DNA of 64,000 bases, taken from sequence record ON568341.1; one strand, written 5' to 3'. Positions 17,152 to 32,180 of the stretch are shown here, one piece after another. The notes beneath the pieces were generated by a model. The model was not told the origin of the DNA and did no database searches. It worked only from the letters and a program-made list of their open reading frames with translations. Position 1 is the first letter of the stretch, and the number at the start of each line of letters is the position of its first letter. Source of the DNA: Escherichia phage UE-S1. Both the position numbers and the translations under genes were made by a program.

Positions 17152-17506
17152 AAAAGTAATATTTCTATTGAATGCCAGAAGTGAATTGTATACAGAGTTA
17201 AAAGAGATTAATGCATTTTATCAGAATTTTGTAATCCAAGAGTTCAGTGATTTAATTACAGATGCATTATTTGAATTCTCGGAGAAATACAAAGGAGCCG
17301 AGTTCAGTGTTAAGAATGTATTACGTCCTTTATCTAAGCGTATAATAAAATTGGATCATTTTAAATTTGACAATAAAGATTTATTCAGCTATAATCCTAA
17401 TACAGCTTTATATTTTATTCCTGATTCAGACAAAGATCACCCAATTCATTACGGATGGATTCTGTCGTACATAGAACAAGGAAAGGAGTATCCTATTAAA
17501 TGGTAA
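17117..17506 (+). CDS. hypothetical protein (129 aa)
   Basis: ORF track. Confidence 0.5.
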   Translation: MNMNPTIVLDLKKVIFLLNARSELYTELKEINAFYQNFVIQEFSDLITDALFEFSEKYKGAEFSVKNVLRPLSKRIIKLDHFKFDNKDLFSYNPNTALYFIPDSDKDHPIHYGWILSYIEQGKEYPIKW

Positions 17507-19044: not shown

Positions 19045-19520
19045 AGTTTAGTTTAGATGCTGCTTTTAAATTTGTACACAAGATAGAAACAATATATCGT
19101 ACATTATGTGCAATACGATTAGTAACATCTGAACTTGATGTTGGTAAAAGGTATCAGGTATGGAATAACACATTTCTAGACAAAGAGCGTTGTTCAACTG
19201 GGTTTAATATTTTATCATTTAATCCAAGTAATTGTTACCCAGAGAAGCATGAGCGTTATCCGAATGATGACATGTGGTTTGAGTACAAAGAAGATGGTGA
19301 TATGTCGTTCATTGAAGTTCCTGATGATTTTAATGCACAAGATTTAACTGAAGAATGGTGGTTCCAGCAGAATTTAGTCCACGATGATATTGATTTATTT
19401 TTTTATGTAGTATTTAAAATGCTTTATCATAACAAGATAGTACAAGATAGTGTATTTTTTTCATGTCTATATATTGATGATTTGTACAATGAAATTCAAA
19501 TCAACATGCCTGTATCGTAA
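19023..19520 (+). CDS. FamB paralog
   Basis: motif EEWWFQQNLVHD. Confidence 0.6.
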   Translation: MQYMSDLEFSLDAAFKFVHKIETIYRTLCAIRLVTSELDVGKRYQVWNNTFLDKERCSTGFNILSFNPSNCYPEKHERYPNDDMWFEYKEDGDMSFIEVPDDFNAQDLTEEWWFQQNLVHDDIDLFFYVVFKMLYHNKIVQDSVFFSCLYIDDLYNEIQINMPVS

Positions 19521-19545
19521 GATATGGGCTTTTTTTGTTTTGGTA

Positions 19546-19574
19546 TTGACATAGAAGTACAAAACTGTTATCAT
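19546..19574 (+). promoter_or_regulatory. sigma70-type promoter, extended -10 (TTGACA-17-TGTTATCAT)
   Basis: TTGACA 19546-19551; followed by strong RBS AAAGGAGGAA. Confidence 0.5.
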
Positions 19575-23542: not shown

Positions 23543-24271
23543 ATGAAATATAAAGAATTTTGTATAAAAACATGGATGTACACTGGTGAATTGCTTACGT
23601 GTTGTAATTTGTACAAGCGTGATGTAAACTTCACAAAGGACAAAGTTATCAAGTATGAAAATTCTCAATTTTATTTGATGGATTTTAGTACTGGGTTTCA
23701 TGGTAAATCAACCGAGATGCTGGATTATACATTAATGGATGAGGCGGCACTATTTCAAGAATCATTAGTATTTGATAAGAAGTACATCTGTACATTAGAA
23801 GAGATGATTGAAATTCAGAATAAAATTAAATGTGTTCACAGGGAATGTATTGATAAATGGTGTAAAACTGGTGAAACTGATTTTAGTAATCATTTTAATC
23901 TAGGAGAAAGAGTGATGGAATTTGATTTTTTAATATCAGTGCATACATTCAAGAATACACATCAGTACTTTTGTAATTTAAACAAAGGTGATTTAATGCA
24001 CAGTGCGAATGAGTATATTCATTTTATGGATGGTAAATTCACATTCATTGATTACAGTTCATTACAATATCCACATCAAGATATGCCGGACTATACAATA
24101 ATGAATGAGGCTGAACTATTTCAAGCTTCATTAGTATTTGACAAGAAGTACATCTGTACATTTGAAGAAGTAATTACTATACAAAATGAAATGAAGGAGT
24201 ATGCATCTTTGAATAAACCCAATGAAGGTATTAATCAAGAATACAAATTCAATATAGAGATTCCAAAATGA
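23543..24271 (+). CDS. FamB paralog with two tandem copies of the conserved module
   Basis: DEAALFQESLVFDKKYICTLEEMIEIQNKIK and NEAELFQASLVFDKKYICTFEEVITIQNEMK in one 242-aa ORF. Confidence 0.6.
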   Translation: MKYKEFCIKTWMYTGELLTCCNLYKRDVNFTKDKVIKYENSQFYLMDFSTGFHGKSTEMLDYTLMDEAALFQESLVFDKKYICTLEEMIEIQNKIKCVHRECIDKWCKTGETDFSNHFNLGERVMEFDFLISVHTFKNTHQYFCNLNKGDLMHSANEYIHFMDGKFTFIDYSSLQYPHQDMPDYTIMNEAELFQASLVFDKKYICTFEEVITIQNEMKEYASLNKPNEGINQEYKFNIEIPK

Positions 24272-24627: not shown

Positions 24628-24636
24628 GATTATAAA

Positions 24637-25110
24637 ATGACATTACAGAGTTCATTGGAAAAAGCAAAGAAGATCCATGAGTACATGAATATGGCAAAAG
24701 AAGGTTCAGTTTACGGTGTTTTCAAAGACACAAGTACTCAATATTATGTGCCGGATAACCTCCTTTATAATGACTACTCAGATACAGAAACGTGCGTACT
24801 GGATACCGACCCTAAAGATTATGAATGTTTCATTGATATGCATTATGAGTACATGGTCTATATTAATGATGCAGATATTACCATCTACAGTACTGACAGC
24901 GATTCCGATGACATTATAATTCCGAGTGAAGTTCTGGAAGGTCCGTGGGATAGTGAAGAGTATTACTTCCAACAAAGTACTGTGTATGATGAAGAAGTTT
25001 TAGATGTTATTGTAATTATGTGGTATTTTAAAAGTATTGGTTCTGGGAACTTCTATTTCGATTACAAATACGTAAAGAAAACTGTAGATAACGGTATTAA
25101 CAGGGGTTGA
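24637..25110 (+). CDS. FamB paralog, subfamily B2
   Basis: N-terminus MTLQSSLEKAKKIHEY; motif EEYYFQQSTVYD..IVIMWYFKS. Confidence 0.65.
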   Translation: MTLQSSLEKAKKIHEYMNMAKEGSVYGVFKDTSTQYYVPDNLLYNDYSDTETCVLDTDPKDYECFIDMHYEYMVYINDADITIYSTDSDSDDIIIPSEVLEGPWDSEEYYFQQSTVYDEEVLDVIVIMWYFKSIGSGNFYFDYKYVKKTVDNGINRG

Positions 25111-25111
25111 A

Positions 25112-25582
25112 ATGAGTTTAGAAAGAGCATTAGAGATTGCGAAGTTAATTGATTTATGCAGCAAAGAAATTGTATCAAATTGTCTCAATGGATATCTATT
25201 CAAGGAAGGTAAATCATATTGTCGAATGAGATACGATGACAGTAGTGAGTATATTCACATGTATGAAGAAGACCTTGATGATTCCGAAATAACACTGAAT
25301 GGGTGTGATGTTAATCTGGAAGATAATTACATTTACTTCAGTCGTGGTGCTGATATTTTAATACAAGAAACATCAATTCAACATGTGAATCCAGATGTAT
25401 ATCTTCCATATTCAGTACTGGATAATGACTGGGGAAGTGAAGAGGTTTACTTTCAGCATAATACTATCTATGATGAAGATGTGCTTGACAAGCTTGTCAT
25501 TCTGTGGTACTTTAAGAACACTGATACTCCCAACTTCTATATGGATTTGGATCTACTACGAGTTATAAAAGAGGATATATGA
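25112..25582 (+). CDS. FamB paralog, subfamily B2
   Basis: motif EEVYFQHNTIYD..LVILWYFKN. Confidence 0.65.
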   Translation: MSLERALEIAKLIDLCSKEIVSNCLNGYLFKEGKSYCRMRYDDSSEYIHMYEEDLDDSEITLNGCDVNLEDNYIYFSRGADILIQETSIQHVNPDVYLPYSVLDNDWGSEEVYFQHNTIYDEDVLDKLVILWYFKNTDTPNFYMDLDLLRVIKEDI

Positions 25583-26022
25583 GTTTAGCAAGTGCACTTA
25601 AACTGGCACACAAAATACATCACTTCCACGATAACATAAAAAGTGGGTTTTATGGTGATAAAGTACATACATATGGAAATGAATATTATCTATCAGGTGT
25701 GACAAGATACTCTAATGATATTTTACTTATGGGATGTGATAAAGATAACTTCATGCAGTACACGTCATGTAGCTTATACACTAATTTTATTGTATATATG
25801 CCTGGTGCTAATATTACATTTGACACATCAAATACCTCGGTAGATTTTGGAATACTGGATGGGCCGTGGGGGACTGAAGAGTATTACTTCCAACAGAGTT
25901 TTATTTTCAGCCAAGAAATGCTTGATTCCTTGGTTGTTTTGTGGTACTTTAAGGAATTAGATATAGAACCCTTCTTTATGGACTGGGGGGCGTGTGAGTA
26001 TTTAGAGACAGAGGTATATTAA
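25579..26022 (+). CDS. FamB paralog, subfamily B2
   Basis: motif EEYYFQQSFIFS..LVVLWYFKE. Confidence 0.65.
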   Translation: MSLASALKLAHKIHHFHDNIKSGFYGDKVHTYGNEYYLSGVTRYSNDILLMGCDKDNFMQYTSCSLYTNFIVYMPGANITFDTSNTSVDFGILDGPWGTEEYYFQQSFIFSQEMLDSLVVLWYFKELDIEPFFMDWGACEYLETEVY

Positions 26023-26510
26023 TGTCATTGCAGAGTGCATTAAAAGAGGCAAAGAAGATTCATGAGTACATGATTATGGTACAGGAAGGTTTAGTGCCTG
26101 GTGTATACAAAACATCAGATACGGAATTCTTTGTTCTGGACAGGGATGATTATGATGAGTCCGAGGTACATGCTGAAACATTAGTTCTGCACACTGATAC
26201 TGGTGATAGTGACAACTGTGAATATCATATGTACAATCAATACATTAGTTATTGCCGTAATGAAGATATTACCATCTACAACACAGATATTGATGCTGAT
26301 GACACTATCATTCCATATTCAGTTCTGGAAGGTCCGTGGGATAGTGAAGAGTATTACTTTCAGAATAGTACTATCTACAGTGAAGAAGAACTGGATGTTA
26401 TTGTGATTATGTGGTACTTTAAAAGTATTGACTCCAGTAGTTTCTATTTTGATTATGAATATGTAGAGAATACAGTAGGAGAAGGTAATGTCATTACAAA
26501 GTGCTCTTGA
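26022..26510 (+). CDS. FamB paralog, subfamily B2
   Basis: motif EEYYFQNSTIYS; near-duplicate of 24637-25110. Confidence 0.65.
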   Translation: MSLQSALKEAKKIHEYMIMVQEGLVPGVYKTSDTEFFVLDRDDYDESEVHAETLVLHTDTGDSDNCEYHMYNQYISYCRNEDITIYNTDIDADDTIIPYSVLEGPWDSEEYYFQNSTIYSEEELDVIVIMWYFKSIDSSSFYFDYEYVENTVGEGNVITKCS

Positions 26511-26934
26511 AAAAGCAAAAGAACTACATGGATACTTTGAAGATATAAAGGCAGGAAAGTTCAAAGAAGTATACAAAACCGAGAACGGTAACTACTACAA
26601 AGATGAAATATATAATAATTCCGTTGGTGTAAGGGTTATTCTTGGGTTGAATTCCAATAGTCCTGTGTCGTTTTCTGAATACAATAGAGATGCAGAATTC
26701 ATTAGTTATGTTGAAAATGGTAGCATTCGTTTTATTAATAGACAAAAACCATTAATTTTGAATTATGAAGTTCTGGATGGTCAGTGGAATAATGAAGAGT
26801 ATTACTTCCAAAACAGTACTGTATACGACGATGAAGTACTTGAAGCATTAGTTATTATGTGGTACTTCAAGAGTATTAACTGTCCTCGATTTTATTTGGA
26901 TTTCGAAGAACTTGGTAAAGATCCAGAGGTATAG
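26488..26934 (+). CDS. FamB paralog, subfamily B2
   Basis: motif EEYYFQNSTVYD. Confidence 0.65.
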   Translation: MSLQSALEKAKELHGYFEDIKAGKFKEVYKTENGNYYKDEIYNNSVGVRVILGLNSNSPVSFSEYNRDAEFISYVENGSIRFINRQKPLILNYEVLDGQWNNEEYYFQNSTVYDDEVLEALVIMWYFKSINCPRFYLDFEELGKDPEV

Positions 26935-31107: not shown

Positions 31108-31644
31108 ATGTTAGATAAAAAAATGAACACTGGAACTCTATACAATCATCTTAAGTTGGATACTTTCGAATCAGCTATCAGTACTGCACAAGATATTATC
31201 GATATTATTAAGTACATTAAAGAAAATAAGTTAAAATGTGTGAAAACACCCGAACGTACAATGTATAAAGATGACTGTATTCACGTATCTGTTGTTAATC
31301 CAAAAGATAAGGATGGTAATAGAGATTTCTATAATAACAGTGAGCAGTTCGAATGTGAATATGATCCAGAATTCAGAGGTGGTTTCATGTGTTACAGTAT
31401 GAAGGATACCTCACACATTGAGATACGTTCATCTAAAGGTGGCATACGTACATTAGAGTTCATTGATATAGTTTTAAATCAGGAATACTACTTTCAACTA
31501 TCATTATTGTTTCCTGCATACGATTTAGGAGTTCTATTCATGTATAAGTACTTTCATGAGCACTGGAATGAAGACTTCTATCTGGACTTAGAAGATTACC
31601 AATTAGTTTGGGAAGAAATGGTAGAACTTCGCAACCACTCTTGA
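31108..31644 (+). CDS. FamB paralog
   Basis: motif QEYYFQLSLLFP; start after TGAGG RBS. Confidence 0.55.
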   Translation: MLDKKMNTGTLYNHLKLDTFESAISTAQDIIDIIKYIKENKLKCVKTPERTMYKDDCIHVSVVNPKDKDGNRDFYNNSEQFECEYDPEFRGGFMCYSMKDTSHIEIRSSKGGIRTLEFIDIVLNQEYYFQLSLLFPAYDLGVLFMYKYFHEHWNEDFYLDLEDYQLVWEEMVELRNHS

Positions 31645-31670
31645 CACCCACCGATTTTTTGTGATATAAT
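31641..31670 (+). promoter_or_regulatory. sigma70-type promoter, extended -10 (TTGACA-18-TGATATAAT)
   Basis: TTGACA 31641-31646, TATAAT 31665-31670; hairpin CCCTTTA..TAAAGGG follows. Confidence 0.5.
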
Positions 31671-31703
31671 CCCTTTATATTAATTTTAAAGGGTTATAAC
31701 ACA

Positions 31704-32180
31704 ATGTCCAACGAACTCACATTCACCAATGCACAAAAAATAGCAAAAGACATTATCAGGGTTTATAAATTCCTTGCGAATGTTACTGAAGATTTTTTAA
31801 TTGATAAAAATAAAGTTATTAAGCGAAATGGATACCTTTCCTTTATGGATGGGTTGCTCTATAGTTCAGATGAGTCAGCTTGTAGTATTAGAGTACTTGA
31901 TACTGTACCAAGTGGTGATTTTATTTCATACCATTTTCCAAGTTCAGATAAGTTCAAATACTACAATAGTATTCTCATAGCAGAAGACTTTGATACGATT
32001 GTAATTAACACTGAAGAAGAGTTCTTCCAGTACAGTACTGTGTACCCAGAGAGGATTGTTTTCAGTTCAGTGATTTACACTACCCTTAAAAATGAACTAA
32101 ATTCCGATAGTGATCATTTCTACTTGGACCTGAATAATATCGATTGTATTATTGAGTACATGGAGAAAAATGGTTTATGA
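31704..32180 (+). CDS. FamB paralog
   Basis: motif EEEFFQYSTVYP. Confidence 0.6.
   Translation: MSNELTFTNAQKIAKDIIRVYKFLANVTEDFLIDKNKVIKRNGYLSFMDGLLYSSDESACSIRVLDTVPSGDFISYHFPSSDKFKYYNSILIAEDFDTIVINTEEEFFQYSTVYPERIVFSSVIYTTLKNELNSDSDHFYLDLNNIDCIIEYMEKNGL

What the first reader, a model, noticed from the sequence alone, without database searches (positions are those of the whole stretch)
24637..26934. Five tandem subfamily-B2 genes with high DNA identity between non-adjacent copies
Five consecutive ~150-aa genes all start MSLxSAL.(K/E)AKKIHEY and end GPWDSEEYYFQxST.Y..E.LD..VIMWYFKS. Copies 24637-25110 and 26022-26510 are near-identical through their last ~50 codons at nucleotide level (compare 24930-25070 with 26325-26470). 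Such repeats ~1.4 kb apart are substrates for deletion or amplification, consistent with an expanding and contracting array.
Basis: seen in the sequence. Interest (0 to 1): 0.5.

Follow-up and report, generated by a model that had tools for sequence, protein, structure and literature searches.

The report
Old tandem paralogs, jumbo coliphage
Five neighbouring small acidic genes of unknown function in a 121Q-like giant E. coli phage are old, diverged copies kept by selection, not near-identical repeats that are actively causing deletions or amplifications.

Summary
The five + strand genes (24637-26934) are real. All match phrog_9317 (unknown function). They lie in an Asteriusvirus (121Q/PBECO4-like) jumbo phage.

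Copies 1 and 4 are the closest pair, but not "near-identical". They are 71% identical in DNA overall and 82% (116/141) in the cited stretch. The longest exact run is 39 nt.

Silent sites between copies 1 and 4 are as diverged as in every other pair (pS 0.59 against 0.54-0.71). The extra identity comes from protein conservation, not recent DNA exchange. Within-genome 1-4 identity equals between-genome identity, so there is no concerted evolution.

All five genes keep 1:1 orthologues in about 21 related phages and are under purifying selection (dN/dS 0.06-0.39). None of 35 phage records shows the predicted 1.4-kb deletion or duplication.

Array content does vary between species: gene 1 or gene 5 can be absent. 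One 10-nt micro-conversion (gene 5 into gene 1) is supported (P=0.004). Hybrid genes occur only on short metagenome contigs; the one I could dissect looks like an assembly chimera.

The genes belong to a family of at least 28 paralogs in this window that share E-E-x-x-F-Q-x-S. The predicted fold has no known relative. The proteins are not in the published virion protein list of phAPEC6 (a close relative). An early host-takeover or anti-defence role is inferred only.

The parts
24637..25110 (+). g1, 157 aa, pI 4.07, net charge -20; closest paralog of g4
   Evidence: ORF. phrog_9317 at E 6.6e-65. Charge. Orthologues are 95-96% nt identical in 121Q, CRJP21, JP4, SP27 and EC.P1. Absent in vB_Ec-M-J, ph0011 and WPEC3.
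25112..25582 (+). g2, 156 aa, pI 4.14; the member kept most widely (57% identical copy even in JNE01/Turkey5)
   Evidence: Orthologue dN/dS is 0.33-0.39.
25579..26022 (+). g3, 147 aa, pI 4.41; overlaps g2 by 4 nt (ATGA)
   Evidence: Orthologue dN/dS is 0.17-0.22.
26022..26510 (+). g4, 162 aa, pI 4.05, net charge -27; the protein that was modelled
   Evidence: AlphaFold2 model has pLDDT 87.7 and pTM 0.84. Orthologue dN/dS is 0.06-0.08.
26488..26934 (+). g5, 148 aa, pI 4.59; overlaps the g4 3' end by 23 nt; occurs as two allele classes about 75% identical among related phages
24925..25068 (+). DNA coding the conserved C-terminal module of g1. The matching stretches are 25409-25552 (g2), 25846-25989 (g3), 26316-26459 (g4) and 26764-26907 (g5).
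   Evidence: Direct-repeat family D1: identity to the g4 copy is 80%, 69%, 61%, 100% and 75%.
24930..24968 (+). Longest exact run shared by g1 and g4 (39 nt; partner at 26321-26359). It codes VLEGPWDSEEYYF.
   Evidence: The position and length of the longest run differ from genome to genome, 27-39 nt. The junctions of the hybrid genes on contigs L020 and L028 fall in the equivalent stretch.
24636..24684 (+). Conserved 5' end coding the N-terminal helix (partners at 26021-26069 and 26487-26535)
   Evidence: Direct-repeat family D8, 84% and 73% identity. The model has a helix at residues 3-21.
19546..19574 (+). Nearest strong sigma-70-type promoter-like site upstream of the array (TTGACA-17-TATCAT with TG). 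It follows the terminator-like hairpin at 19508-19529.
   Evidence: No terminator-like site on the + strand lies between it and the next perfect promoter at 31641-31670. This is a consensus match only and was not shown to function.

Best explanation
The five genes are an old, stably inherited set of diverged paralogs. They lie inside a much larger family expansion specific to this phage group: at least 28-31 members between about 15.5 and 42.8 kb of this window.

Shown:
- Each of the five has its own 1:1 orthologue in most sequenced relatives, and each is under purifying selection.
- g1 and g4 come from a later duplication than the other members, but one that still predates the split of the sampled phages.
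- Their higher DNA identity at the two ends reflects constraint on the protein (the N-terminal helix and the C-terminal helical module with the invariant E-x-x-F-Q-x-S motif), not recent DNA exchange.
- The proteins are very acidic, about 150 aa, with a confidently predicted alpha/beta fold that has no solved relative.
- The family occurs only in RaK2/121Q-type jumbo phages.
- The orthologues of all five are missing from the published virion protein list of phAPEC6.

Suggested, with weaker support: exchange between paralogs is rare and short. It is confined to the few 20-40-nt stretches that code the conserved motif.

Inferred (roughly 0.3 confidence): they are early, intracellular host-takeover or anti-defence proteins. 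The conserved N- and C-terminal helices would form a common scaffold or partner-binding core. The variable central beta-sheet would give each paralog a different target.

The confidence value of 0.75 given for this explanation applies to the evolutionary and structural parts listed under 'Shown', not to the inferred function.
For: - Identity of the phage: 33 Asteriusvirus records match at 83-92%.
- Orthology: five genes in the same order in 121Q, CRJP21, JP4, SP27, EC.P1, phAPEC6, G17, PBECO4, ECO103, ELP-22 and Ecwhy_1, and on two long metagenome contigs.
- Age of the duplication: whole-gene dS between g1 and g4 is 1.26, against 0.10-0.85 for orthologues.
- C-module pS for g1-g4 is 0.59, against 0.54-0.71 for the other pairs; pN is 0.094 against 0.17-0.33.
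- No concerted evolution.
- Purifying selection: dN/dS is 0.06-0.39 for whole genes and below 0.45 in every region.
- Superfamily: an iterated HMM finds 31 ORFs. The motif E..xFQx[STAN] occurs in 28 of 158 ORFs, against 0.5 in shuffles.
- E110, F113 and Q114 are invariant in 27 sequences.
- Rarity: 95 representatives among 1.84 billion proteins. No Pfam, NCBIfam or PDB sequence match.
- Acidity: pI 4.05-4.6.
- Not in the virion: the phAPEC6 orthologues are gp438c-gp442c. Table 1 of PMC7247149 lists nothing between gp347 and gp549.
- Context: tightly packed or overlapping genes downstream of sigma-70 consensus sites.
- Micro-conversion.
Against: - No expression data exist for this phage group, so the 'early' timing rests on promoter-like consensus sites only. 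Such sites are not enriched over shuffles in this region.
- The function is pure inference. Acidity and early position fit many phage proteins.
- Some signs point to more paralog exchange than the tests detect. Orthologue silent-site divergence is higher in the C module than elsewhere for g1 and g2. All five genes share the minor codons GAG and TAC in the motif. One silent site (alignment position 323) carries T in g1, g4 and g5 of the window but A in almost all other genomes; the exceptions are g4 of 121Q and of ph0011.
- If the hybrid contigs L020 and L028 are real, unequal crossing-over does occur.
Confidence: 0.75

Rival explanations
1. g1 and g4 are an active pair of direct repeats. Homologous recombination between them repeatedly deletes or duplicates the 1.39-kb block (g1 3' end, g2, g3, g4 5' end), so the array expands and contracts within populations.
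For: g1 and g4 are the most similar pair and share a 39-nt exact run. That is above the roughly 25-nt minimum for RecA-type recombination (general knowledge). The phage group encodes a RecA-like protein (gp203c in Table 1 of PMC7247149). Contig L028 (1396 bp) has exactly the structure of the duplication or circle junction: g3 3' end, then a g4::g1 hybrid, then g2, then g3.
Against: Identity is only 82% and silent sites are saturated. No such deletion or duplication occurs in 35 phage records or two long contigs. There is no within-genome excess of similarity. L028 is a three-way mosaic g4>g5>g1 in which every switch falls in an exact shared run. Its ends lie on the repeated motif and its length equals one repeat period. 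Sister samples carry the normal array. This is the typical look of a short-read graph mis-traversal.
Confidence: 0.12
2. Motif-guided short-tract exchange. The DNA coding the conserved W-D-S-E-E-Y-Y-F-Q and I-M-W-Y-F-K stretches acts as a recurrent joint. At this joint, paralogs g1, g4 and g5 swap short patches or whole C-terminal modules. This keeps these stretches homogeneous and occasionally makes chimeric genes or one-unit deletions.
For: CRJP21 g1 carries 6 substitutions within 10 nt, all equal to g5 of the same genome (P=0.0036). Protein P0003 and contig L020 show g3, then a g4::g5 hybrid, then the gene that normally follows g5. That is a 439-bp one-unit deletion with its junction in GAAGGTCCGTGGGATAGTGAAGAG. 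A second hybrid, P0116, has a different junction after WYFKSI. The position of the longest exact run differs between genomes. Orthologue pS is raised in the C module of g1 and g2. All five genes share minor codons in the motif.
Against: Only one event passes a formal test. The four-sequence test shows no excess of concerted sites. All hybrids sit on contigs of 0.6-1.9 kb from short-read metagenomes and never in a complete genome. L028 shows that such contigs can be chimeras. Shared codons may be inherited from the common ancestor of the five.
Confidence: 0.25
3. Virion-packaged or protease-processed proteins. The invariant E-E-x-[YLF]-F-Q-x-S would be a cleavage site (it resembles TEV/3C-type sites, from general knowledge). 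The family would supply the capsid inner body or ejected proteins, like the paralogous inner-body proteins of phiKZ.
For: phAPEC6 has an inner body whose proteins are unidentified (PMC7247149). The motif is present in 28 paralogs at a constant relative position.
Against: None of gp438c-gp442c is among the 62 virion proteins of phAPEC6. In the model the motif lies in a helix (residues 109-117) with pLDDT about 96, not in an exposed loop. The genes lie among sigma-70-type promoter-like sites, not in the structural module.
Confidence: 0.04

Closest known systems
PHROG family phrog_9317 (with related phrog_12674, phrog_34017 and phrog_13866), all 'unknown function'
   Same: All five proteins match phrog_9317 end to end (E 1e-51 to 1e-65). 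They match the related families weakly. Neighbouring paralogs match those other families strongly.
   Different: The PHROG entry carries no function, structure or evolutionary description. The wider superfamily link through the E-x-x-F-Q-x-S motif, and the fold, are not recorded there.
Multigene families and 'genomic accordions' of large DNA viruses (poxvirus K3L amplification, ASFV MGF360/505, poxvirus ankyrin/F-box families); from general knowledge
   Same: Many tandem paralogs of small accessory proteins sit in a variable genome region. Their content differs between related viruses. A conserved module is joined to a variable part.
   Different: Accordion copies are near-identical and change in number within a few passages. 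Here the copies are 33-60% identical in protein, keep 1:1 orthologues across the genus, and show no recent amplification.
Paralog sets noted in RaK2-like jumbo phages (for example 22 paralogous ORFs in phage CBB, PMC5259590)
   Same: Same phage group. Paralogs there are attributed to duplication. Structural relatives of g4 are found in 121Q, RaK2, GAP32, BF and fHe-Yen9-04.
   Different: The papers found and read here do not define this family, its motif, its size or its dynamics.
Small acidic early anti-restriction / DNA-mimic proteins (T7 Ocr, ArdA, T4 Arn); from general knowledge
   Same: Small, strongly acidic (pI 4.05-4.6, net charge -10 to -27), non-virion, encoded among likely early genes.

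Membership tests
phrog_9317 | Significant full-length match to the family HMM | tested here: met
   E 6.6e-65, 3.5e-52, 4.1e-51, 4.9e-64 and 8.8e-57, covering profile positions 1-152/158 of 160.
Active recombination repeats (near-identical direct repeats) | Long stretch of near-perfect DNA identity (roughly >=95% over >=100 nt) between the copies | tested here: not met
   82% over 141 nt, longest exact run 39 nt. 75% over 261 nt (family D2).
Active recombination repeats (near-identical direct repeats) | Low synonymous divergence between the copies compared with other paralog pairs | tested here: not met
   C-module pS is 0.59 (dS 1.17) for g1-g4, against 0.54-0.71 for the other nine pairs.
Concerted evolution by gene conversion | Paralogs within a genome are more alike than the same paralogs compared between genomes | tested here: not met
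   The diagonal (0.78-0.87) equals the off-diagonal values in the g1 x g4 matrix. Concerted-pattern sites (0-7) roughly equal control-pattern sites (0-7).
Concerted evolution by gene conversion | Clustered substitutions in one copy that all match a paralog of the same genome | tested here: met
   One case. CRJP21 g1 alignment positions 395-404: six of six changes equal g5. Permutation P=0.0036 for a run of 6.
Copy-number-variable array ('accordion') | Different copy numbers among close relatives, with junctions inside the repeats | tested here: inconclusive
   Content differs between species: g1 absent in 3 verified genomes and 5 inferred ones, A4 without g5, JNE01/Turkey5 with 3 distant copies. 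These are whole-gene presence/absence differences without repeat junctions. Junction-type hybrids occur only on short metagenome contigs of doubtful assembly.
Virion / inner-body proteins | Detected in purified particles | tested here: not met
   The orthologues gp438c-gp442c are not in the 62-protein list of phAPEC6 (PMC7247149 Table 1).
Early host-takeover / anti-defence proteins | Early transcription and a host or defence target | not testable with these tools
   Only promoter-like consensus sites are available. No transcriptome for the genus was found.

The most novel reading that the evidence does not exclude
The short DNA stretches that code the invariant E-E-x-x-F-Q-x-S and WYFK motifs would serve as built-in recombination joints. 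They would let the 28 or more paralogs of this family exchange variable N-terminal/beta-sheet halves and C-terminal modules. They would also let the array drop or gain units. That would make a homologous-recombination-based way of diversifying a phage counter-defence repertoire. The hybrids on contigs L020 and L028 and protein P0116 would then be real products of this process.
Probability: 0.12. Interest if true: 0.65.

Novelty: new member of a known kind. Interest (0 to 1): 0.3.

Why it matters
The result removes a tempting but wrong reading: similar-looking tandem genes are not necessarily unstable repeats. Here the copies are old, individually conserved and selected. All five are therefore probably needed, and a phage used for therapy or engineering should not be expected to lose them spontaneously at high rate.

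The wider observation may be more useful. Roughly a quarter of the genes in a 27-kb stretch (probably early genes) of 121Q-type giant phages belong to one family of acidic proteins about 110-240 aa long (mostly 110-190). The family has a confidently predicted fold with no solved relative, an invariant E-x-x-F-Q-x-S motif and no known function. That makes a defined target set for finding out how these very large phages take over or disarm E. coli.

Tried and rejected
- tRNA call. ARAGORN calls a tRNA-Cys at 26070-26154 inside g4. I rejected it: no Rfam match at E<=1, and the fold z-score is -0.8.
- CRJP21 'insertion'. The apparent 800-bp insertion is an artefact of joining a paralogous BLAST piece. 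The array there is the normal five genes.
- 'Remnant of g1'. In vB_Ec-M-J and ph0011 the 186-bp ORF in the g1 position is unrelated to g1. It also exists next to an intact g1 in A4.
- Block duplication (g1-g2 copied as g4-g5). Not supported: g2-g5 identity (37%) is no higher than g2-g4.
- A4 gene 4 as a g4/g5 hybrid. Inconclusive.
- Nucleotide-level conservation of the motif across the whole superfamily. Rejected: codons are mixed outside the five genes.
- Searches that gave nothing or were unavailable: Pfam, NCBIfam and PDB sequence searches were empty. afdb50 was unavailable. IMG/VR held only 121Q, RaK2 and one 109-kb uncultivated viral contig with a weak partial match, and the junction pattern found nothing there. 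The contigs of P0116 and P0117 could not be fetched.
- Literature searches found no description of this family and no transcriptome of the genus.
Full report
WHAT IS THERE

The window comes from a jumbo myovirus of the genus Asteriusvirus (121Q, PBECO4, phAPEC6, G17 and relatives). A 4-kb query around the finding matches 33 phage records of 310-386 kb at 83-92% identity. No closer record is in the collection.

They are packed without spacers. There is a 1-nt gap between g1 and g2. The other junctions overlap by 4, 1 and 23 nt.

All five match one PHROG family of unknown function, phrog_9317, over their full length (E 1e-51 to 1e-65). They match nothing in Pfam, NCBIfam or the PDB sequence set.

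CHECK OF THE OBSERVATION

g1 and g4 are the closest pair. Protein identity is 60% against 33-40% for the other nine pairs. Codon-aligned DNA identity is 71% against 49-54%.

The longest exact run is 39 nt (24930-24968), coding VLEGPWDSEEYYF. The repeat finder gives the same picture: one five-copy family of 144 nt, with 80% (g1), 69%, 61% and 75% identity to the g4 copy.

So the higher identity is real, but 'near-identical' is an overstatement.

WHY g1 AND g4 LOOK ALIKE

I separated silent from replacement changes using the Nei-Gojobori method.

- In the conserved C-terminal module, the proportion of silent sites that differ between g1 and g4 is 0.59 (dS 1.17). That is inside the range of the other nine pairs (0.54-0.71).
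- What differs is the replacement rate: pN is 0.094 against 0.17-0.33.
- Over the whole gene, dS between g1 and g4 is 1.26. Orthologues of the same gene in other phages differ by dS 0.10-0.85.

The g1/g4 duplication is therefore older than the split of the sampled phages. The extra identity is protein-level conservation, not recent DNA exchange.

TESTS FOR CONCERTED EVOLUTION

- In six phages with all five genes, g1-g4 identity in the C module inside one genome (0.78-0.87) is no higher than between g1 of one phage and g4 of another.
- In a four-sequence test (two genomes, two paralogs), sites grouping paralogs by genome number 0-7. Sites showing the biologically meaningless crosswise pattern also number 0-7. 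By contrast, 90-200 sites group by orthology.
- Each of the five genes is under purifying selection: dN/dS is 0.06-0.39 for whole genes, and below 0.45 in the N-terminal, middle and C-terminal parts.

DOES THE ARRAY EXPAND AND CONTRACT?

The same five genes in the same order occur in 121Q, CRJP21, JP4, SP27, EC.P1, phAPEC6, G17, PBECO4, ECO103 4-12-1, ELP-22 and Ecwhy_1, and on two 77-87 kb metagenome contigs. Ten further records cover the whole 2.3-kb query.

A g1 x g4 crossover would leave one g1/g4 chimera and remove g2 and g3, or would double them. No record shows either outcome.

Content does differ at the species level:

- vB_Ec-M-J, ph0011 and WPEC3 lack g1. By their identical match coordinates, so do Turkey3, fEgEco12, WPEC5, TH47 and CMSTMSU.
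- SD-1_S14 has a split g1.
- A4 has g1-g3 plus a divergent fourth gene, and no g5.
- JNE01 and Turkey5 have one g2-like gene and two distant members.

The small ORF in the g1 position of vB_Ec-M-J is unrelated to g1, and it sits beside an intact g1 in A4. These are therefore whole-gene presence/absence differences, not repeat-mediated junctions.

g5 also occurs as two allele classes only about 75% identical, in genomes that are otherwise about 90% alike. This points to exchange between phages.

SIGNS OF SHORT EXCHANGES BETWEEN PARALOGS

Aligning the C modules of g1, g4 and g5 from ten genomes shows patchy sharing.

The clearest case is CRJP21 g1. It has six substitutions within 10 nt that turn LDVIII into LEVLVI, and all six equal g5 of the same genome. 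A run of six paralog-matching minority sites occurs in 0.36% of permutations.

Weaker hints:

- The place and length of the longest exact run between g1, g4 and g5 change from genome to genome, 25-39 nt.
- One silent site carries T in g1, g4 and g5 of the window but A in almost all other genomes. The exceptions are g4 of 121Q and of ph0011.
- Silent divergence among orthologues is higher in the C module than elsewhere for g1 (0.162 against 0.072 and 0.026) and for g2.
- All five genes use GAA GAG .. TAC in the motif, whereas the other family members mix codons.

HYBRID GENES ON METAGENOME CONTIGS

The protein search returned P0003. It is g4-type for residues 1-113 and g5-type for the rest. Its 1882-bp ENA contig (L020) reads g3, then the hybrid, then the gene that normally follows g5. 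That is a 439-bp one-unit deletion, with its junction inside GAAGGTCCGTGGGATAGTGAAGAG. The same protein cluster holds P0116, a second hybrid with a different junction (after WYFKSI), and a fragment, P0117.

A metagenome scan found L028 (1396 bp). It reads g3 3' end, then a hybrid gene, then g2, then g3 5' part. This is exactly the junction expected for a g4 x g1 duplication or excised circle.

On close inspection, the L028 hybrid is identical to g4 of a sister contig up to the motif, then identical to g5 for 36 nt, then identical to g1. Every switch falls in an exact shared run. The contig begins and ends on the repeated GAAGAGTATTACTTCCAA, and its length equals one g1-g4 period. That is what a short-read assembly graph produces when it takes wrong turns at shared k-mers.

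I therefore treat L028 as a probable chimera. L020 and P0116 remain unresolved. Real recombinants cannot be excluded without the reads.

WHAT THE GENES ARE

An HMM built from the five genes and iterated on the window's ORFs collects 31 ORFs between 15.5 and 42.8 kb. The pattern E-x-x-x-F-Q-x-[STAN] occurs in 28 of 158 ORFs, at 53-74% of the protein length in all single-unit ORFs. Shuffled proteins give 0.5 occurrences. In an alignment of 27 members, E110, F113 and Q114 of g4 are invariant, and A10, Y112, S116 and L124 are nearly so.

A profile search of 1.84 billion representative proteins finds only 95 relatives at E<=1e-3. Most are about 110-200 aa, a few are short fragments, and one long low-complexity protein is spurious.

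The five proteins are strongly acidic: pI 4.05-4.6, net charge -10 to -27.

Their phAPEC6 orthologues, gp438c-gp442c, are not among the 62 virion proteins found by mass spectrometry (PMC7247149 Table 1).

The array lies downstream of a sigma-70-type promoter-like site at 19546-19574, which follows a terminator-like hairpin. No + strand terminator-like site lies before the next perfect consensus promoter at 31641-31670. These are pattern matches only.

MECHANISM

Shown:

- The five genes are an old, stable, selected paralog set.
- The g1-g4 similarity comes from a later but still ancient duplication plus protein constraint.

Suggested, not shown: exchange between copies is rare and limited to 10-40-nt patches in the motif-coding stretches.

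Inferred:

- These are non-virion, probably early, cytoplasmic proteins.
- The conserved N- and C-terminal helices form a common core. The variable sheet provides different binding surfaces.
- The likeliest role is host takeover or counter-defence. This rests on analogy with other small acidic early phage proteins, and I hold it at roughly 0.3 confidence.

COMPARISON WITH WHAT IS KNOWN, AND VERDICT

Membership in phrog_9317 is met. Membership in the class of active near-identical repeats is not met, on either identity or silent divergence. Concerted evolution is not met globally and is met locally once. An accordion-type array is inconclusive. Paralogs in RaK2-like phages have been noted only in passing (22 ORFs in CBB; PMC5259590). 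I found no paper on this family or on transcription in the genus.

The finding is an ordinary, though uncharacterised, tandem paralog set. Interest is modest for the finding itself. It is somewhat higher for the surrounding 28-31-member family, with its unknown fold and invariant motif.

Noticed in passing
window 15529-42845: At least 28-31 ORFs of one superfamily share E-E-x-x-F-Q-x-S at about two thirds of their length (0.5 expected by chance). That is roughly a quarter of the genes in this stretch. The motif resembles TEV/3C protease sites (general knowledge) but lies in a predicted helix.
   Followed up: partly
window 23543-24271: A 242-aa ORF consists of two ~120-aa paralog units fused in frame. 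In 121Q the corresponding position holds two separate genes (367 and 368), and the first unit there is a different paralog.
   Followed up: partly
window 26070-26154: ARAGORN calls a tRNA-Cys (anticodon aca) inside g4. There is no Rfam match at E<=1 and the fold z-score is -0.8, so it is a false positive. No other tRNA is called in the 64-kb window.
   Followed up: yes
window ~24780-24800 (g1): g1 orthologues differ by a 21-nt in-frame tandem unit coding DTETCVL. The window and JP4 have one copy. 121Q, phAPEC6, G17 and others have two.
   Followed up: partly
window 26488-26934 (g5) versus L002, L010: g5 exists as two allele classes only about 75% identical in DNA (the EC.P1/SP27/ph0011 type against the window/121Q type), in genomes otherwise about 90% alike. 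This suggests replacement by recombination between phages.
   Followed up: partly
L028 (OERJ01002822.1, 1396 bp) and L020 (ERZ28642444 scaffold_10318, 1882 bp): Short metagenome contigs carry hybrid genes (g4::g5::g1 and g4::g5) joined inside the motif-coding stretch. L028 has the hallmarks of an assembly chimera. L020 is unresolved.
   Followed up: partly
window 26488-26510: The last 7 codons and the stop of g4 are read from the DNA that codes the conserved MSLQSAL start of g5 in another frame. This 23-nt overlap is kept in the related genomes.
   Followed up: no
window 17367-17395 and 31641-31670: Two perfect sigma-70 consensus promoter-like sites (TTGACA, 17 or 18 nt, TATAAT). The second lies in the 31644-31704 intergenic gap and carries an extended -10 TG.
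   Followed up: no
L004 2829-2999 (A4), L008 2826-3011 (vB_Ec-M-J): A 56-61-aa ORF unrelated to the family lies just upstream of the array in A4 (next to g1) and in the g1-less clade. It is absent from the window and from 121Q. This is a second presence/absence cassette at the array border.
   Followed up: partly
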